The notes: generated by a model from the sequence alone, not told the origin. A stretch of 64,000 bases of DNA from a virus (IMGVR_UViG_2690316068_000002); one strand, 5' to 3'. Counted from the stretch's first letter, positions 30,904-44,765 are shown. Program-made: numbers and translations.

Positions 30904-32937
30904 TTACTTAACTTGGTGGCCTGGTTTAGCACCAGCATCCGGGCTTAACAGGAAGATATCTTTTCCGCCAGGGCCAGCAGCCATCACCATGCCTTCAGAG
31001 ATACCGAAGCGCATTTTACGCGGAGCCAGGTTAGCCACCATAATTGTGTGACGACCAATCAGTGCCTGTGGGTCTGGATAAGCAGAACGGATGCCTGAGA
31101 AGACATTACGCTTTTCACCACCGAGATCCAGTGTCAGGCGCAACAGTTTGTCAGAACCTTCAACAAACTCCGCGTTTTCAATCAGCGCCACACGCAGGTC
31201 AACTTTGGCGAAGTCGTCAAAGGTGATGGTTTCCTGAATCGGGTCGTCAGCCAGTGGGCCAGTTACCGGTGCGGCTGTGGCTTTCACTTCTTCTTTGGAT
31301 GCTTCCACCAGTGCTTCCACCTGTTTCATATCGATACGGTTATACAGTGCCTTGAACGGATTCACTTTATGGCCCAGCAGCGGTTGCTGGATACCATCCC
31401 AGGTCAGTTCTGTATTCAGGAATGCTTCTGCACGTTCAGTCAGTTTCGGCAGTACCGGTTTCAGGTACGTCATCAGCACGCGGAACAGGTTAATGCCCAT
31501 AGAGCAAATCGCCTGCAGATCGGCATCGCGCCCTTCCTGCTTCGCCACCACCCACGGAGCCTGTTCATCGACATAGCGGTTAGCCAGGTCAGCCAATGCC
31601 ATGATTTCACGGATAGCTTTACCAAATTCGCGGCTTTCCCATGCTTCGCCAATCACTTCAGCGGCATCAGTAAAGGTTTTGTACAGTTGCGGGTCAGCCA
31701 GTTCGCTTGCCAGCACGCCGTCAAAACGCTTGTTGATAAAGCCTGCATTACGGGAGGCCAGGTTAACCACTTTGTTCACGATATCGGCATTCACGCGCTG
31801 AACGAAATCCTCCAGGTTGAGATCGATATCATCAATGCGCGAAGAGAGTTTCGCAGTGTAGTAGTAACGCAGGCTGTCGGCGTCAAAATGATTCAGCCAG
31901 GTGCTGGCTTTAATAAAGGTGCCGCGAGACTTGGACATCTTCGCGCCGTTCACCGTCACATAGCCATGAACAAACAGGTTGGTCGGCTTGCGGAAGTTGC
32001 TGCCTTCCAGCATGGCAGGCCAGAACAGGCTGTGGAAGTAAACAATATCTTTACCGATGAAGTGGTACAGCTCGGCGGTGGAGTCTTTCTTCCAGTATTC
32101 ATCGAAGCTGGTGGTATCGCCGCGCTTGTCGCACAGATTCTTGAAGGAACCCATGTAGCCAATCGGCGCGTCCAGCCAGACGTAGAAATATTTGCCCGGC
32201 GCGTTCGGAATTTCAAAACCGAAGTAAGGCGCATCTCGGGAGATATCCCACTGTTGCAGGCCGGATTCAAACCATTCCTGCATTTTGTTCGCCACCTGCT
32301 CCTGCAACGCGCCGCTGCGGGTCCATGCCTGCAACATTTCGCTGAAAGAAGGCAGATCAAAGAAGAAGTGTTCGGAATCACGCATTACCGGGGTAGCGCC
32401 AGAAACCACCGATTTCGGCTCGATCAATTCAGTCGGGCTATATGTTGCGCCGCAGACTTCACAGTTATCGCCGTATTGATCTGGCGCTTTACATTTCGGG
32501 CAGGTGCCTTTTACAAAACGATCCGGCAGGAACATGCCTTTTTCCGGGTCGTACAACTGAGAGATAGTGCGGTTTTTAATAAAACCGTTCTCTTTCAGGC
32601 GAGTATAGATAAGCTCAGACAACTGACGGTTCTCTTCGCTGTGCGTCGAGTGATAGTTGTCATAGCTGATGTTAAAGCCTGCGAAATCAGTCTGGTGTTC
32701 CTGACTCATTTCGCCAATCATCTGCTCCGGTGTGATACCAAGCTGCTGTGCTTTCAGCATGATCGGCGTACCGTGGGCATCGTCGGCACAGATGAAATTA
32801 ACCTCGTGGCCGCGCATTCGCTGGTAACGAACCCAGACATCAGCCTGGATGTGCTCCAGCATATGGCCGAGGTGGATTGAGCCGTTAGCGTACGGCAGCG
32901 CGCACGTCACCAGAATTTTCTTCGCGACTTGGGTCAT
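30904..32937 (-). CDS. metG: Methionyl-tRNA synthetase
   Basis: 677-aa product from [29 protein letters not shown] (HIGH motif), KMSKS motif, C-terminal tRNA-binding domain; near-identical to enterobacterial MetG from memory. ORF-track upstream extension (to 33066) rejected. Confidence 0.95.
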
Positions 32938-33094
32938 AGTAGGCATTACTTCTTTGTAGTGAAAAGGGGCTTGATAGTAACAAAATGGCCTTATGTCTGC
33001 CATGTGATAACAGCATTTCTCATAAATGATTAAATGTCGTAGCTGGAGTACACTACAAGGCGACAATTGCGCAAATTAAAATAAAGGAGACGGG

Positions 33095-34195
33095 ATGAGC
33101 GAGTCCAAATCGCCGGATGCCCTGAGAGCAATGGTAGCCGGTACGCTGGCTAATTTTCAGCACCCAACCCTGAAACACAACCTGACTACGCTTAAAGCGT
33201 TACACCATGTTGCGTTGATGGATGACACACTGCATGTCGAACTAATCATGCCTTTCGTGTGGAATAAGCCTTTTGAAGACCTGAAAGAGCAATGTAATGG
33301 TGATCTGCTCCGTATCACTGGCGCAAAGGCTATTGACTGGAAGCTGTCGTACAACATTGCCACGCTTAAGCGCGTCAAAAACCAACCAGGTATTAATGGC
33401 GTTAAGAACATTATCGCCGTCAGCTCAGGCAAGGGCGGCGTGGGTAAATCCTCCACGGCGGTAAACCTGGCACTGGCGTTGGCTGCTGAAGGTGCGAAAG
33501 TTGGTATTTTGGATGCCGATATCTATGGTCCATCAATTCCAACCATGCTGGGCGCGGAAAACCAACGTCCAACCTCACCTGACGGTACTCACATGGCACC
33601 TATCATGTCTCATGGCCTGGCAACCAACTCTATTGGTTATCTGGTCACCGACGACAATGCAATGGTGTGGCGTGGACCGATGGCCAGCAAGGCGCTGATG
33701 CAGATGTTGCAGGAAACTCTATGGCCTGATCTGGACTATCTCGTTCTCGATATGCCGCCGGGCACTGGTGATATTCAGTTGACGCTGGCGCAGAACATTC
33801 CTGTAACTGGTGCGGTTGTGGTAACTACGCCGCAAGACATCGCGCTGATCGATGCGAAGAAAGGCATTGTGATGTTCGAAAAAGTCGAAGTGCCGGTACT
33901 GGGTATCGTCGAAAACATGAGTGTGCATATTTGCAGTAACTGCGGTCATCACGAGCCAATTTTTGGCACCGGTGGCGCACAGAAACTGGCCGAGAAATAC
34001 AACACGCAGTTGTTAGGCCAAATGCCACTTCATATCTCTCTTCGTGAAGATCTGGATAACGGAACACCAACCGTTATTAGTCGTCCAGATAGCGAATTTA
34101 CGGCTATTTATCGTGACCTCGCAGATCGCGTTGCTGCCCAAATGTATTGGCAAGGTGAAGTAATACCTGGCGAAATCGCATTCCGCGCAGTGTGA
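33095..34195 (+). CDS. apbC: Fe-S cluster carrier ATPase ApbC/Mrp
   Basis: 366 aa; P-loop SSGKGGVGKSS, CxxC motif (CSNCGHH), divergent from metG as in enterobacterial chromosomes. Confidence 0.9.
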   Translation: MSESKSPDALRAMVAGTLANFQHPTLKHNLTTLKALHHVALMDDTLHVELIMPFVWNKPFEDLKEQCNGDLLRITGAKAIDWKLSYNIATLKRVKNQPGINGVKNIIAVSSGKGGVGKSSTAVNLALALAAEGAKVGILDADIYGPSIPTMLGAENQRPTSPDGTHMAPIMSHGLATNSIGYLVTDDNAMVWRGPMASKALMQMLQETLWPDLDYLVLDMPPGTGDIQLTLAQNIPVTGAVVVTTPQDIALIDAKKGIVMFEKVEVPVLGIVENMSVHICSNCGHHEPIFGTGGAQKLAEKYNTQLLGQMPLHISLREDLDNGTPTVISRPDSEFTAIYRDLADRVAAQMYWQGEVIPGEIAFRAV

Positions 34196-34232: not shown

Positions 34233-34622
34233 CTACATCACGGGACAATCATCAAACTCGCCACTTCTTGCGTCGTTGATAATGTGAGTGATCACACCAA
34301 ACACGGCATTGCTGCCCGTGCATCCATCGTCATCCTTTGGCAATGCTTCCTTCTTACCGGTTCTTAAATCCTCCAGATGCTGACGTGGATACTTCCGGTA
34401 TCTTTTTACGCGATATTCCCCATCCAGAGCGCATACAAGCAGAGAACCATCAACCGGGGTAAGTGAGGAATCGACCACCAGCAATGCACCCTGTAATATT
34501 CCCTCACGATGATGACTATCAGCTGCCCTCATGAAGTAGGTCGCTGAAGGATGTCTAATTATCTGCTGATCAAGAGAAATACGGCTCTCAGCATAATCCG
34601 CCGCAGGAGAAGGGAAGCCCAT
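34233..34622 (-). CDS. UmuD'-like S24 peptidase-family protein (N-terminally short relative to UmuD)
   Basis: 129 aa; begins MGFPSPAADY, i.e. at the position equivalent to the RecA-facilitated Cys24-Gly25 cleavage site of UmuD; Ser (ADSH) and Lys (RVKRY) positions conserved; C-terminal insertion relative to UmuD. Confidence 0.7.
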   Translation of the reverse strand: MGFPSPAADYAESRISLDQQIIRHPSATYFMRAADSHHREGILQGALLVVDSSLTPVDGSLLVCALDGEYRVKRYRKYPRQHLEDLRTGKKEALPKDDDGCTGSNAVFGVITHIINDARSGEFDDCPVM

Positions 34623-34638
34623 AATACTCGCCTCTTAA

Positions 34639-34658
34639 TACTGTATATACATACAGTA
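34639..34658. promoter_or_regulatory. LexA (SOS) box
   Basis: taCTGTatatacatACAGta, a perfect CTGT-N8-ACAG palindrome, 17 bp upstream of the UmuD'-like start codon and its AAGAGG Shine-Dalgarno. Confidence 0.75.
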
Positions 34659-35284
34659 TATGTTGAAGCTATATATTTTTGAACTCTATCTCTTAAAAAA
34701 GATGTTAATAAGATGCTAACTATTGAAAGGCATAAATATATACAATTCCAACAAACGTTATTTTTAACAAATTTTTTCTCTCTGTTGACTTTTGCGAAAG
34801 CCTTGTCTGGCCTAAATTGCGCGGAAGCTACTTTTTCCTTCCTGAGTTATCCACAGAGTTATGCACTTGCATGCATAACCTATACACACTATCTTAATTC
34901 GCAAGACACTGATGTTGCGGTATTGAAGGTTCATTGGGTTAAAAATAGACATTAAAAAGCCCAGTTGACTAGGCTGGGCTTTTTAAAAGGAAACAGAGTT
35001 TGCGGCTCTGTTCCTGAGCCATAAGTATCTGGCGACTGAATTAAGATTAACCGAATGTACTGGATTCATCAAGAAACGTTGAGTGGTCATACCAGGTAAT
35101 AATGACCATTTACTAAACATCGTTGTTCTCAAAGAAGATTTAAGTCCAGGTTTTTGGTGACTCTAAAACCTTACCTTAACTCGAAATCGTGCCGTAAGTA
35201 TCTGGCGACTACAGATATTGCAACTGCAAAGGCAAGCCCAAAGGTATTTGCAGCTAGGCGCGATAAAACTAAGTGAGGCCTGTT

Positions 35285-35368
35285 ATGGTTAACTTACTGT
35301 TCAAAATCGTGCCGCCGATGTTCGCGATTATCAAAGCGATCATTGAGTACGTAAACCAGCGTCCATAA
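35285..35368 (+). CDS. Candidate 27-aa hydrophobic peptide (MVNLLFKIVPPMFAIIKAIIEYVNQRP)
   Basis: Short ORF followed by a hairpin (ggccccatcaagagcatggggcc); lies in an intergenic block with 16-bp perfect direct repeats (taagtatctggcgact at 35023 and 35205). Confidence 0.25.
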   Translation: MVNLLFKIVPPMFAIIKAIIEYVNQRP

Positions 35369-35423
35369 CGCTAGTTGCTACAGGCCCCATCAAGAGCATG
35401 GGGCCTCTTTATCGTACTATTGC

Positions 35424-44195: not shown

Positions 44196-44765
44196 TCAAT
44201 TAGAGCTTTGAAAGGCTTTGTGTGGCTGTGTTGCGAGGTTATGTCGATGGCTTAACTCACGCATCATGTCTTCAAGCCGACTCTTTGTGTCGTCGAGTTG
44301 GTCGGCCATTGCTCCCAAAAGCTGACGAACGGCCATCGGATCATCGCTGTTTAGTGATGGCATTTTATAACCCGCCTGAGAAGACATAAGATTGAACGCA
44401 GACATCAACATCGTTAGAGAGGATGTAAGCCCAGCAATTTCACGATCTTTGCTGGCAATAATCGCCTCACTCTTGTTAGTGTCATCAGTTCGTTGAGTCT
44501 CGCTCACCATATCCAAAGTCGCCTGCAACTTATCAGCGCGCTCTTTTTCAGCAAGATAATGAACACCGAAATGATGTGCTAAAGCTACAACCTGAGTTGG
44601 CTCTTCAAAGGTGGACTCAAAATTAAGTGCTGTAACCACTCTCTCAAATATGGAAACGTCTTCTATTCCTCGAAGAATGGCTAACATTTTGACCAGTTCA
44701 TTAGCATCCATTTCTTCGAATAAGGCGTTTTGTTCATCAGCTATCGCTTTGCATTTCTTGCACAT
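44196..44765 (-). CDS. Hypothetical protein
   Basis: 189 aa ORF; motif-1 upstream (44781-44820). Confidence 0.5.
   Translation of the reverse strand: MCKKCKAIADEQNALFEEMDANELVKMLAILRGIEDVSIFERVVTALNFESTFEEPTQVVALAHHFGVHYLAEKERADKLQATLDMVSETQRTDDTNKSEAIIASKDREIAGLTSSLTMLMSAFNLMSSQAGYKMPSLNSDDPMAVRQLLGAMADQLDDTKSRLEDMMRELSHRHNLATQPHKAFQSSN

What the first reader, a model, noticed from the sequence alone, without database searches (positions are those of the whole stretch)
34990..35420. Direct-repeat-containing intergenic block with a 27-codon hydrophobic ORF
There are two perfect 16-bp direct repeats (taagtatctggcgact, about 182 bp apart) and related aaatcgtgccg repeats, then a short ORF for a hydrophobic peptide ending in a hairpin. 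The layout resembles type I toxin-antitoxin or sRNA loci, where repeats are shared by the toxin mRNA leader and the antisense RNA. Alternatively the repeats are junction scars.
Basis: inference. Interest (0 to 1): 0.4.

Follow-up and report, generated by a model that had tools for sequence, protein, structure and literature searches.

The report
Unannotated antisense-RNA toxin–antitoxin module
The repeats belong to a small, self-contained gene pair on a phage-plasmid, in which an ~86-nt antisense RNA base-pairs with the leader of an mRNA for a 27-residue membrane peptide; it looks like a plasmid "addiction" module of a known type, but from a family that current annotation pipelines do not recognise.

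Summary
There are two 20-nt direct repeats (19/20 identical, with a 16-nt perfect core), two identical 'aaatcgtgccg' 11-mers, and a 27-codon hydrophobic ORF followed by a terminator.

Repeat copy 1 is the 5' end of a divergently transcribed ~86-nt sRNA on the minus strand, with a conserved promoter, an internal hairpin and a terminator. Copy 2 lies in the 5' UTR of the peptide mRNA.

Across 12 distinct relatives from plasmids, phage-plasmids and prophages, the two copies change together. All differences between them are G·U-compatible only in that strand assignment. Peptide-found relatives, collected independently, show the same.

The leader folds into a covariation-supported three-helix domain that presents the target in a hairpin loop. 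The second 11-mer is an alternative partner of one helix strand and would close the ribosome-binding site. This matches the DinQ/AgrB logic.

The DinQ/DqlB protein models and the Rfam AgrB model do not accept this locus. It is therefore a new family of a known kind. Toxicity and the mode of repression are inferred, not shown.

The parts
34952..35037 (-). Predicted antitoxin sRNA, about 86 nt. It has a single-stranded 5' recognition segment, an internal hairpin and a Rho-independent terminator.
   Evidence: Fold energy is -34 kcal/mol, z = -5.6. Covariation occurs in both hairpins across 15 variants. A covariance model built from the family finds it in every relative, including four loci located only through the peptide (55-66 bits).
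35018..35037 (-). Repeat copy 1. This is the sRNA's target-recognition sequence, 5'-AGUCGCCAGAUACUUAUGGC.
   Evidence: It co-varies with copy 2, and the differences are only A/G or C/U in the wobble-compatible direction.
34989..35014 (-). Internal hairpin of the sRNA (GGAACAGAG / CUCUGUUUCC).
34954..34984 (-). sRNA terminator. It is a bidirectional hairpin with A/T runs on both sides.
   Evidence: (I2).
35044..35072 (-). sRNA promoter: -35 TTGATG (35072-35067), a 17-nt spacer, then -10 TAATCT (35049-35044). The predicted start is near 35037.
   Evidence: The hexamers are conserved (TTGAAG/TTGATG/TTGTAG and TAAGCT/TAATCT/TAAGAT) while the spacer varies in 22 variants. The consensus scanner does not report it, because the -10 matches only 3/6.
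35084..35108 (.). Inverted repeat TGGTCAT-n11-ATGACCA between the two divergent promoters. It may be an operator or a structure; its function is unknown.
   Evidence: Sequence reading. Relatives carry a different inverted repeat at the same place.
35114..35142 (+). Candidate weak promoter of the peptide mRNA (TAAACA-17-GATTTA). The predicted start is about 35148.
   Evidence: This is inferred only. Relatives have better hexamers at the aligned position: TTGACA-17-AATTTT in L062, TTTAGA-17-AATTTT in L023 and TTGAAG-18-AAAAAT in L005.
35148..35171 (+). Hairpin at the predicted 5' end of the mRNA (AGGUUUU...AAAACCU).
   Evidence: By my reading of the alignment (not formally counted), the stem sequence differs between relatives while pairing is kept.
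35186..35193 (+). Helix P1, 5' strand (AUCGUGCC), inside the first 'aaatcgtgccg' repeat (35184-35194).
   Evidence: It pairs with 35257-35264. Five of 8 pairs show double-sided changes across 17 variants.
35191..35210 (+). Repeat copy 2, the sRNA binding site in the 5' UTR. Its end lies 75 nt upstream of the AUG.
   Evidence: The duplex with the sRNA 5' end is -38.5 kcal/mol. This is the strongest target in the window other than the sRNA's own gene.
35197..35219 (+). Helix P2, the target hairpin. The 5' arm and the loop (GGCGACU) belong to the sRNA site, so the loop presents the site to the sRNA 5' end.
   Evidence: Four of 8 pairs have double-sided changes. Recognition-sequence variants change copy 1, copy 2 and the 3' arm of P2 together.
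35224..35253 (+). Helix P3 (CUGCAAA...UUUGCAG), the most conserved leader element.
   Evidence: It was used as the search pattern, so its invariance is partly due to ascertainment. L062, found independently, has the compensatory form CUGUAAA/UUUACAG.
35257..35264 (+). Helix P1, 3' strand (GGCGCGAU), just upstream of the SD. It can pair either with 35186-35193 or with 35304-35311.
35285..35368 (+). 27-codon ORF for the hydrophobic peptide MVNLLFKIVPPMFAIIKAIIEYVNQRP. The SD GAGG lies at 35275-35278.
   Evidence: Ten distinct CDS variants have variable columns by codon position of 9/3/16. Paralogous 25-30-aa peptides occur in all relatives. GRAVY is 0.86.
35304..35314 (+). Second 'aaatcgtgccg' repeat, inside codons 7-10. 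It is the alternative partner of 35257-35264, and this helix encloses the SD and AUG.
   Evidence: The helix is predicted in the MFE structures. It has the same duplex energy as P1, -14.3 kcal/mol. It is well formed in the window lineage but weaker or absent in some relatives.
35382..35406 (+). Terminator of the peptide mRNA.
   Evidence: Relatives have a hairpin plus T-run at the same place with a different sequence.

Best explanation
This is a type I toxin-antitoxin module of the 'divergent, non-overlapping sRNA' class, which also contains DinQ/AgrB, TisB/IstR-1, ZorO/OrzO and ShoB/OhsC. It sits on an SSU5/pHCM2-like phage-plasmid. The plus strand makes a ~260-nt mRNA (about 35148-35410) encoding a 27-aa membrane peptide. 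The minus strand makes a constitutive ~86-nt sRNA (35037 to 34952). The sRNA's 5' 20 nt pair with the leader at 35191-35210, including one G·U pair. The target is presented in the loop and 5' arm of hairpin P2, inside a three-helix leader domain (P1-P2-P3). Binding must unfold P2, and it also invades the 5' strand of P1 (4 nt here, up to 7 nt in relatives). The freed 3' strand of P1 (GGCGCGAU) can then pair with the identical sequence copy inside the ORF (35304-35311), closing a helix around the SD and AUG. The long duplex is also a likely RNase III substrate. If the replicon, and therefore the unstable sRNA, is lost, the peptide is made and damages the membrane, giving post-segregational killing or addiction. 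What is shown computationally: the sRNA gene, the intermolecular pairing, the leader structure, and that the ORF is protein-coding. What is inferred: toxicity, the relative RNA stabilities, the switch or RNase III step, and the mRNA start site.
For: (1) Intermolecular covariation. Twelve distinct copy1/copy2 pairs were compared. Columns 7-25 are paired in all of them, 13/27 pairs have double-sided changes, and 0/500 shuffles reach this. Slid controls pair only 29-35% of cells against 88.6% for the real register. At least 7 recognition variants exist. (2) Every copy1/copy2 difference in the core is A->G or C->U. These are wobble-compatible only if copy 1 is read from the minus strand and copy 2 from the plus strand. 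This argues against DNA-level repeats. (3) The sRNA has conserved promoter hexamers, hairpin and terminator covariation, and z = -5.6. (4) Four loci found through the peptide alone (L061-L064) each have the sRNA gene upstream on the opposite strand (55-66 bits). They have their own matched repeats and fully compensated P1/P2/P3 helices, for example P1 UUAGUC:GACUAA and UUACGCC:GGCGUAA. (5) For the leader structure, 94.8% of cells are paired, 10/23 pairs have double-sided changes, and 0/500 shuffles reach this. (6) The ORF shows a third-position bias of 9/3/16. The peptide is hydrophobic with a conserved central Pro and an aromatic/basic C-terminus, the hallmark used by Fozo et al. 2010 (PMC2887945). 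(7) Distribution: 115/5426 complete E. coli genomes, mostly on 105-120-kb phage-plasmids and also in lambdoid prophages; near rep genes on plasmids of Citrobacter and Kosakonia, and on plasmids of Klebsiella, Enterobacter, Atlantibacter and Cronobacter. It is always an unannotated, self-contained block. (8) The organisation and leader logic match DinQ/AgrB and DqlB/AgrB, where the RNA switch, toxicity and post-segregational killing were shown experimentally (PMC5066626; PMC12365149).
Against: There is no expression or toxicity data. The peptide matches no Pfam or NCBIfam toxin model. It is less hydrophobic than DinQ/DqlB (GRAVY 0.86 against 1.8). The mRNA promoter in the window is weak and not pinned down. 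Equilibrium folding predicts the RBS-closing helix with or without the sRNA site blocked: RBS accessibility is 0.40 in both cases in the window, and only L004 and L008 respond. The ORF-internal partner is not conserved in all relatives; it is weak in L011 and L048 and absent in L062. The switch step is therefore the weakest link.
Confidence: 0.72

Rival explanations
1. This is an sRNA-controlled small membrane protein that is not a toxin, for example a superinfection-exclusion, phage-defence or regulatory peptide. The RNA pairing is real, but the module is not an addiction system.
For: The sRNA/leader pairing and the coding signal say nothing about toxicity. The peptide is only moderately hydrophobic and carries charged residues in the putative helix. 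The module also sits in the early-left 'ea' region of integrated lambdoid prophages, which do not need addiction. No toxin family matches.
Against: The architecture is the signature of type I TA systems: a divergent constitutive sRNA, a long structured leader with a sequestered RBS, and a peptide under 30 aa with an aromatic/basic C-terminus. Its placement next to rep genes on several plasmids also fits. The closest architectural relative, DqlB/AgrB, is a proven addiction module.
Confidence: 0.18
2. This is simply a divergent member of the already described DinQ/AgrB-Dql family, for example the 'dqlA' group of Kristiansen et al. 2016, and so is already known.
For: The gene order, sRNA length and shape are the same, and the leader logic matches S2/SL3/SL4. 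There are reciprocal sub-threshold RNA-model matches. Rfam AgrB scores 27.6 bits on the window sRNA. The model built from this family hits the three AgrB genes of dqlB loci full-length at 30-33 bits, E about 1e-5, while the best unrelated background is about 10 bits. The N-terminus MVNLL resembles the MINLL of DqlB. The DqlA sequences could not be read, because they exist only as a figure.
Against: The NCBIfam DinQ (NF041472) and DqlB (NF041473) models give no hit at E<=10 for 7 peptides of this family, while the positive controls score 54-67 bits. Rfam AgrB stays below its gathering score of 40 for the window and gives no match with E <= 1 in 9 relatives, while true Dql-linked AgrB scores 48-58. 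BLASTN and nhmmer find no significant similarity of the leader or sRNA to dinQ or dqlB loci. Dql genes were defined by 'striking' nucleotide similarity to the dinQ 5' UTR and by shared signature residues. I read that signature as the LELIR motif of DinQ and DqlB seen; it is absent here. PGAP annotates dqlB in thousands of plasmids but never at this locus.
Confidence: 0.08
3. The repeats are DNA-level elements, such as recombination or junction scars, iterons or protein-binding sites, and the small ORF is fortuitous.
For: They are direct repeats in an intergenic gap next to a module boundary in a mosaic phage genome. In some plasmids the block lies 1-2 kb from a rep gene.
Against: The differences between copies are strand-asymmetric and wobble-compatible. 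There is three-way covariation with the 3' arm of hairpin P2. Each copy is embedded in a transcription unit with its own promoter-like and terminator elements. The ORF shows a coding substitution pattern. The block is not at a prophage end.
Confidence: 0.02

Closest known systems
DinQ/AgrB of E. coli K-12 and the plasmid-borne DqlB/AgrB (pOXA-48)
   Same: The sRNA (~85 nt) is divergent and non-overlapping, and its 5' end pairs with 20-35 nt of the toxin 5' UTR. The toxin is a 27-31-aa helical peptide. The leader has a helix linking the sRNA-target region to a segment just upstream of the SD, with two hairpins in between (S2/SL3/SL4 of +44 dinQ; P1/P2/P3 here). sRNA binding frees that segment to close the RBS. 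It is plasmid-borne, often near rep genes, and usually unannotated. There are weak reciprocal covariance-model matches.
   Different: There is no significant sequence similarity in the peptide, leader or sRNA. The peptide has a central Pro-Pro/His-Pro and a polar EYVNQRP tail instead of the LELIR motif. The duplex is shorter (20-25 bp against 34-35). No LexA box is seen at the toxin promoter. There is a single sRNA copy. In the window lineage the RBS-closing partner lies inside the ORF rather than at the SD. Many relatives carry two tandem toxin ORFs behind one leader.
ZorO/OrzO and TisB/IstR-1 (E. coli)
   Same: The genetic organisation is the same, with the antitoxin sRNA 5' of the toxin gene and not overlapping it (T1TAdb paper). 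The sRNA target lies far upstream of the RBS in a long structured 5' UTR. The toxins are small peptides of roughly this size: ZorO is 29 aa, and TisB is similar from background knowledge.
   Different: Rfam OrzO-P reaches only 34 bits against its gathering score of 60, and on one relative only. No IstR match was found, and there is no peptide similarity. No evidence was found here for a 5'-processing requirement or for SOS control.
Hok/Sok-type plasmid addiction modules
   Same: The presumed biological role is the same: post-segregational killing on low-copy plasmids and phage-plasmids by a membrane peptide that an antisense RNA keeps silent.
   Different: Hok/Sok is cis-overlapping and uses a mok leader ORF and 3'-end processing, and Hok is a peptide of about 50 aa. 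None of these features is present, and the Rfam sok model does not match this locus.

Membership tests
Type I toxin-antitoxin systems (general) | An antisense RNA that base-pairs with the toxin mRNA | tested here: met
   A 20-25-nt intermolecular duplex is conserved by covariation in 12 variants plus 4 independently found loci. Thirteen of 27 pairs have double-sided changes, and 0/500 shuffles reach this.
Type I toxin-antitoxin systems (general) | A small (<60 aa) hydrophobic protein-coding ORF | tested here: met
   The ORF is 27 aa with GRAVY 0.86. It shows a coding substitution pattern of 9/3/16, and conserved paralogues occur in relatives.
Type I toxin-antitoxin systems (general) | The peptide is toxic when expressed and is neutralised by the RNA; the RNA is less stable than the mRNA | not testable with these tools
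   This needs induction and rescue assays and RNA half-life measurements.
DinQ/AgrB-Dql family | The toxin matches the DinQ or DqlB protein model (NCBIfam NF041472 / NF041473) | tested here: not met
   There were 0 hits at E<=10 for 7 peptides of this family. DinQ and DqlB controls scored 54 and 67 bits.
DinQ/AgrB-Dql family | The sRNA matches Rfam AgrB (RF02891) at the gathering score (40 bits) | tested here: not met
   The window sRNA scores 27.6 bits. No AgrB match with E <= 1 was found in 9 relatives. AgrB genes of dqlB loci score 48-58 bits in the same run.
DinQ/AgrB-Dql family | Nucleotide similarity of the 5' UTR to dinQ, the criterion used to define dql genes | tested here: not met
   BLASTN with word size 7 gives a best E of 0.13-1.1, confined to the sRNA hairpin. 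An nhmmer profile of the leader gives no hit on dinQ or dqlB loci.
DinQ/AgrB-Dql family | A divergent non-overlapping sRNA gene upstream of the toxin gene, pairing through its 5' end with the toxin leader | tested here: met
DinQ/AgrB-Dql family | A leader with mutually exclusive pairings, in which the sRNA target strand pairs with a segment upstream of the SD that can alternatively close the RBS | tested here: inconclusive
   The P1/P2/P3 domain is strongly supported. The alternative helix that closes the RBS is predicted and isoenergetic in the window lineage. It is not conserved in all relatives, and equilibrium accessibility does not respond to blocking the sRNA site.
DinQ/AgrB-Dql family | SOS (LexA-box) control of the toxin promoter (dinQ proper) | tested here: not met
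   No CTGT-N8-ACAG box lies between 35040 and 35190. The only LexA box (34640-34659) serves the neighbouring umuD-like gene.
ZorO/OrzO, TisB/IstR-1, ShoB/OhsC, Hok/Sok, Ldr/Rdl, Ibs/Sib | The sRNA matches the family's Rfam model, or the toxin matches the family's protein model | tested here: not met
   There were no Rfam matches at gathering score in the whole window. The only sub-threshold match to these families is OrzO-P at 34 bits against a gathering score of 60. There were no Pfam or NCBIfam hits.

The most novel reading that the evidence does not exclude
This is an unrecognised, horizontally mobile type I toxin-antitoxin family, perhaps a deep sister branch of DinQ/AgrB. Its sRNA/target 'address' has diversified into at least seven mutually orthogonal recognition sequences, maintained by three-way covariation of the sRNA, the target and the hairpin arm. 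The module would then act both as an addiction system and as a specificity or exclusion determinant among co-resident phage-plasmids, conjugative plasmids and prophages. In many relatives one sRNA controls a two-toxin operon.
Probability: 0.35. Interest if true: 0.6.

Novelty: new member of a known kind. Interest (0 to 1): 0.5.

Why it matters
Phage-plasmids of the SSU5/pHCM2 type are common in clinical Enterobacteriaceae and carry resistance genes, but their maintenance functions are poorly catalogued. This block is present in about 2% of complete E. coli genomes and in plasmids of at least eight genera. It is annotated as a toxin-antitoxin gene or an RNA gene in none of the records examined. 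If it is an addiction module, it helps explain the stable inheritance of these elements, and it would interfere with plasmid-curing strategies, as shown for DqlB/AgrB on pOXA-48. The natural set of recognition variants with matched leader structures is also a ready-made collection of orthogonal RNA regulator/target pairs. It provides a clean comparative case for how sRNA-target specificity evolves.

Tried and rejected
- My first collection-scan pattern was one base short and found nothing, which wasted one genome scan and one viral scan. The corrected pattern worked.
- The search for homologous proteins refuses queries under 40 aa. An exact look-up shows the peptide is only an 'uncharacterized/hypothetical protein' in UniRef and NCBI nr.
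- The consensus promoter scan found neither promoter. The sRNA promoter was recovered through conservation. The mRNA promoter remains only a candidate.
- A LexA/SOS box at the toxin promoter was looked for and is absent.
- I tested whether blocking the sRNA site changes predicted RBS accessibility at equilibrium. It does not, except in L004 and L008. The switch model therefore rests on architecture and analogy only.
- I looked for a dinQ-like 'sequence 1' (a 5' segment that locks the target). The best upstream duplex lies outside the predicted transcript.
- Homology to dinQ/dqlB by BLASTN and nhmmer is not significant.
- Full-text searches for the peptide and RNA sequences, and for type I TA systems on SSU5-like phage-plasmids, found nothing.
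- The junction-scar and iteron readings are rejected (see rival explanations).
- A 13/16 match to the repeat at 44517-44532 (-) is treated as chance.

Full report
**Context**

The window is part of a ~110-kb SSU5/pHCM2-like phage-plasmid. It is 100% identical to E. coli plasmid pRM9131-1 and to Escherichia phage Cyrano over the region. The finding lies in an 800-bp gap (34623-35423) between a umuD-like S24 peptidase gene (34233-34622, minus strand, with a LexA box at 34640-34659) and a block of lambdoid 'ea' genes. No record annotates anything in this gap. The same block also occurs in integrated lambdoid prophages at thrW.

**Observation**

- The 16-nt perfect repeat is at 35022-35037 and 35195-35210, and extends to 20 nt at 19/20 identity.
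- It is far beyond chance: 3 matches with up to 3 mismatches against 0.29 expected.
- Start-to-start spacing is 173 nt, not 182.
- AAATCGTGCCG occurs exactly twice in 64 kb, at 35184 and 35304, against 0.10 expected.
- The ORF is 35285-35368, with a GAGG Shine-Dalgarno 6 nt upstream and a terminator-like hairpin at 35382-35406.

**Relatives**

BLAST found the block in 115 of 5426 complete E. coli genomes (106 plasmid places, 10 chromosomal) and in 98 PLSDB plasmids. These include diverged copies (68-84% identity) in Kosakonia, Citrobacter, Klebsiella and Enterobacter plasmids, in three cases 1-2 kb from the rep gene.

A scan with the most conserved leader hairpin added 2 genome, 29 viral and 17 metagenome loci. 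A tblastn search with a paralogous peptide then found 19 further plasmids, including Atlantibacter, Leclercia and Cronobacter. Four of these were fetched as a test set that is independent of the RNA pattern.

**The repeats are an RNA-RNA interface**

- In every locus there are two copies, 152-179 nt apart. Their sequence differs between loci but matches within a locus. Examples are taagtatctggcgact, aatgtatctggcgact, gttgttaaccggcgac, gtaaaacactggcgac, aatgtatctggcagc, aatgtgtctggctac and, in the independent set, gtatgtgtctgccagc.
- I treated copy 2 as mRNA and the reverse complement of copy 1 as sRNA. With that assignment, 27 intermolecular pairs over 12 distinct variants give 88.6% paired cells.
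- Columns 7-25 are paired in all 12 variants, and 13 pairs have double-sided changes.
- No shuffle out of 500 reaches the observed covariation. Slid registers pair only 29-35% of cells.
- Every difference between the two copies inside the core is A(copy 1)/G(copy 2) or C/T. That yields G·U pairs only if copy 1 is transcribed from the minus strand and copy 2 from the plus strand. The opposite assignment would give A·C mismatches.
- This asymmetry argues against a DNA-level explanation such as gene conversion, iterons or scars.

**The sRNA**

- Immediately 3' of copy 1 on the plus strand, which is upstream on the minus strand, lies a conserved promoter. It reads TTGATG-17-TAATCT here and TTGAAG-17-TAAGCT in most relatives, with a variable spacer.
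- This places the start about 6 nt downstream, at the A of AGUCGCC (35037).
- The transcript runs to the terminator at 34954-34984. It has a free 5' recognition segment, an internal hairpin (34989-35014) and the terminator.
- The fold energy is -34 kcal/mol with z = -5.6, and both helices show compensatory changes.
- A covariance model built from 15 variants recovers the gene, on the expected strand and about 230-300 nt upstream of the peptide ORF, in all four independently found loci (55-66 bits).
- Within the window, the leader site is the only strong target of the sRNA 5' end other than the complement of the sRNA's own gene: -38.5 kcal/mol against -28.8 or weaker elsewhere.

**The mRNA leader**

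- RNAalifold, and a count on 17 variants, support a three-helix domain.
- P1 pairs 35186-35193 (inside the first AAATCGTGCCG) with 35257-35264 (GGCGCGAU, just upstream of the SD).
- P2 (35197-35204 with 35212-35219) is a hairpin. Its 5' arm and loop (GGCGACU) are the sRNA site.
- P3 (35224-35230 with 35247-35253) is the conserved CUGCAAA/UUUGCAG hairpin.
- Overall, 94.8% of cells are paired and 10 of 23 pairs have double-sided changes. No shuffle out of 500 reaches this, and slid controls give 28-50%.
- P1 is completely rewritten in some relatives: UUAGUC:GACUAA in L061 and L064, and UUACGCC:GGCGUAA in L062.
- A change in the recognition sequence therefore requires co-ordinated change at three places: the sRNA, the target and the P2 3' arm. 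This is what is seen.

**The second 11-mer**

- The copy inside the ORF (35304-35314, codons K-I-V-P) is complementary to the same GGCGCGAU strand.
- In minimum-free-energy folds this helix encloses the SD and AUG. It has the same duplex energy as P1, -14.3 kcal/mol.
- The window lineage uses GTG CCG where sister lineages use the synonymous GTA CCT. This suggests RNA-level selection in this lineage.
- ORF1-type relatives have an analogous CUCGCGCA segment in the ORF.
- The resulting model is that the sRNA unfolds P2 and invades P1, which frees GGCGCGAU to lock the RBS. This matches what Kristiansen et al. demonstrated for +44 dinQ and AgrB (S2, SL3, SL4, sequences 2-3-4; PMC5066626).
- There are caveats. 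Equilibrium predictions show the RBS-closing helix with or without the sRNA site blocked. The overlap of the sRNA with P1 varies between relatives from about 2 to 7 nt. The ORF-internal partner is weak or absent in some relatives.
- RNase III cleavage of the 20-25-bp duplex, which was shown for dinQ/agrB, is an equally plausible repression route.

**The peptide**

- Ten distinct 27-codon variants have variable columns by codon position of 9/3/16, and the AIIEYVNQRP tail is conserved.
- Relatives encode one or two paralogous 25-30-aa peptides behind the same leader. ORF1-type examples are MQMLLLFLKLAHPVTVIIMTLLGFWKNR and similar. ORF2-type examples are MVNLLMKLLPPLVSIIVMVVDYFNKR and similar.
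- All share LL-x-K near the N-terminus, a central Pro, a hydrophobic stretch and an aromatic/basic C-terminus. GRAVY is 0.3-1.4. These are the features Fozo et al. used to predict type I toxins.
- Toxicity itself is not testable here.

**Comparison with known systems**

- Rfam gives no match at gathering score in the window. The best sub-threshold match is AgrB, at 27.6 bits against a gathering score of 40, on the minus strand exactly over the predicted sRNA.
- I fetched the K-12 dinQ-agrAB locus and two dqlB loci for comparison. The gene order, sRNA size and shape, and the repeat logic are the same.
- The DinQ and DqlB NCBIfam models reject all seven peptides tested, while the controls pass.
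- Rfam AgrB recognises the Dql-linked sRNAs (48-58 bits) but none of nine relatives of this family.
- BLASTN and nhmmer find no significant similarity.
- The family's own covariance model does hit the three Dql-linked AgrB genes full-length at 30-33 bits. A remote common origin is therefore possible but not demonstrated, because OrzO-P and RNAI models give similar weak cross-hits.
- DqlB/AgrB on pOXA-48 was shown in 2025 to be toxic, to be neutralised through base pairing (by compensatory mutants) and to cause post-segregational killing (PMC12365149). This is the best functional analogue.
- Full-text searches for the peptide or RNA sequences, for dql genes and for type I TA systems on SSU5-like phage-plasmids found no description of this family.
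- I could not read the DqlA sequences, which exist only as a figure. That leaves a small chance that the family already has a name.

**Verdict**

The locus is best described as a new, unannotated family of a known kind: a type I TA system of the DinQ/AgrB-like divergent-sRNA class.

- The sRNA gene, the intermolecular pairing, the leader architecture and the coding status rest on strong comparative evidence.
- Toxicity, the addiction role, the mRNA start and the exact repression step are inferences by analogy.

Noticed in passing
window 30904-34195: The phage-plasmid carries its own full-length metG (methionyl-tRNA synthetase) and apbC/mrp (Fe-S carrier) genes, divergently arranged as on the E. 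coli chromosome. These are second copies of housekeeping genes on a mobile element.
   Followed up: no
window 34233-34683: A umuD-like S24 peptidase gene lies on the minus strand. A near-consensus LexA box (tactgtatatacatacagta, 34640-34659) overlaps its promoter-like site TTCAAA-17-TATACT. In the chromosomal prophage copy this gene is truncated.
   Followed up: partly
window 34660-34950: This is a ~300-bp AT-rich unannotated stretch containing an 80-codon ORF (34713-34955, +) that ends at the bidirectional terminator. It is conserved only in the window lineage of the module and is not part of the core found in other genera.
   Followed up: no
window 35084-35108; L003 about 2630-2660: An inverted repeat lies between the divergent sRNA and mRNA promoters (TGGTCAT-n11-ATGACCA). 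Relatives have a different inverted repeat (AACCGTT...AACGGTT) at the same position. It may be an operator or an RNA structure.
   Followed up: no
L003 2440-2470; also L004-L008, L022, L023: A conserved motif around a palindrome (cccctaTATGTAGtattta / CTACATGTAG) lies just beyond the sRNA terminator in the non-E. coli lineages. It is absent from the window.
   Followed up: no
L003, L005, L006, L007, L009, L062: Many relatives carry two tandem small hydrophobic ORFs (paralogues) behind a single leader and sRNA site. The second ORF has its own strong SD (AAGGAGG). The window has only the second type, fused directly to the leader.
   Followed up: partly
L061-L064, about 250-330: A conserved ~60-nt block (aaattaacatcaaaatcaactcttgttctgaaaa..aatccctactagaatc) lies upstream of the module in IncF-type plasmids of four genera. 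Its function is unknown.
   Followed up: no
L058 (IncI1 plasmid pCSRM-NDM13) 566-1441: A dqlB locus with two tandem AgrB genes sits directly next to a sok antitoxin match (113 bits). Type I modules therefore cluster there. In L003 the module lies downstream of a repBA pseudoknot and repA.
   Followed up: no
L010 (JAEWTL010000044.1): A contig labelled 'MAG: Bacillota bacterium' carries the E. coli-type version of the module at about 94% identity. This is probably a binning contaminant from an enterobacterial phage-plasmid.
   Followed up: no
window 44517-44532 (-): This is a 13/16 match to the repeat (TAAGTTGCAGGCGACT). I judged it to be chance and did not examine it as a possible second sRNA target.
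   Followed up: no
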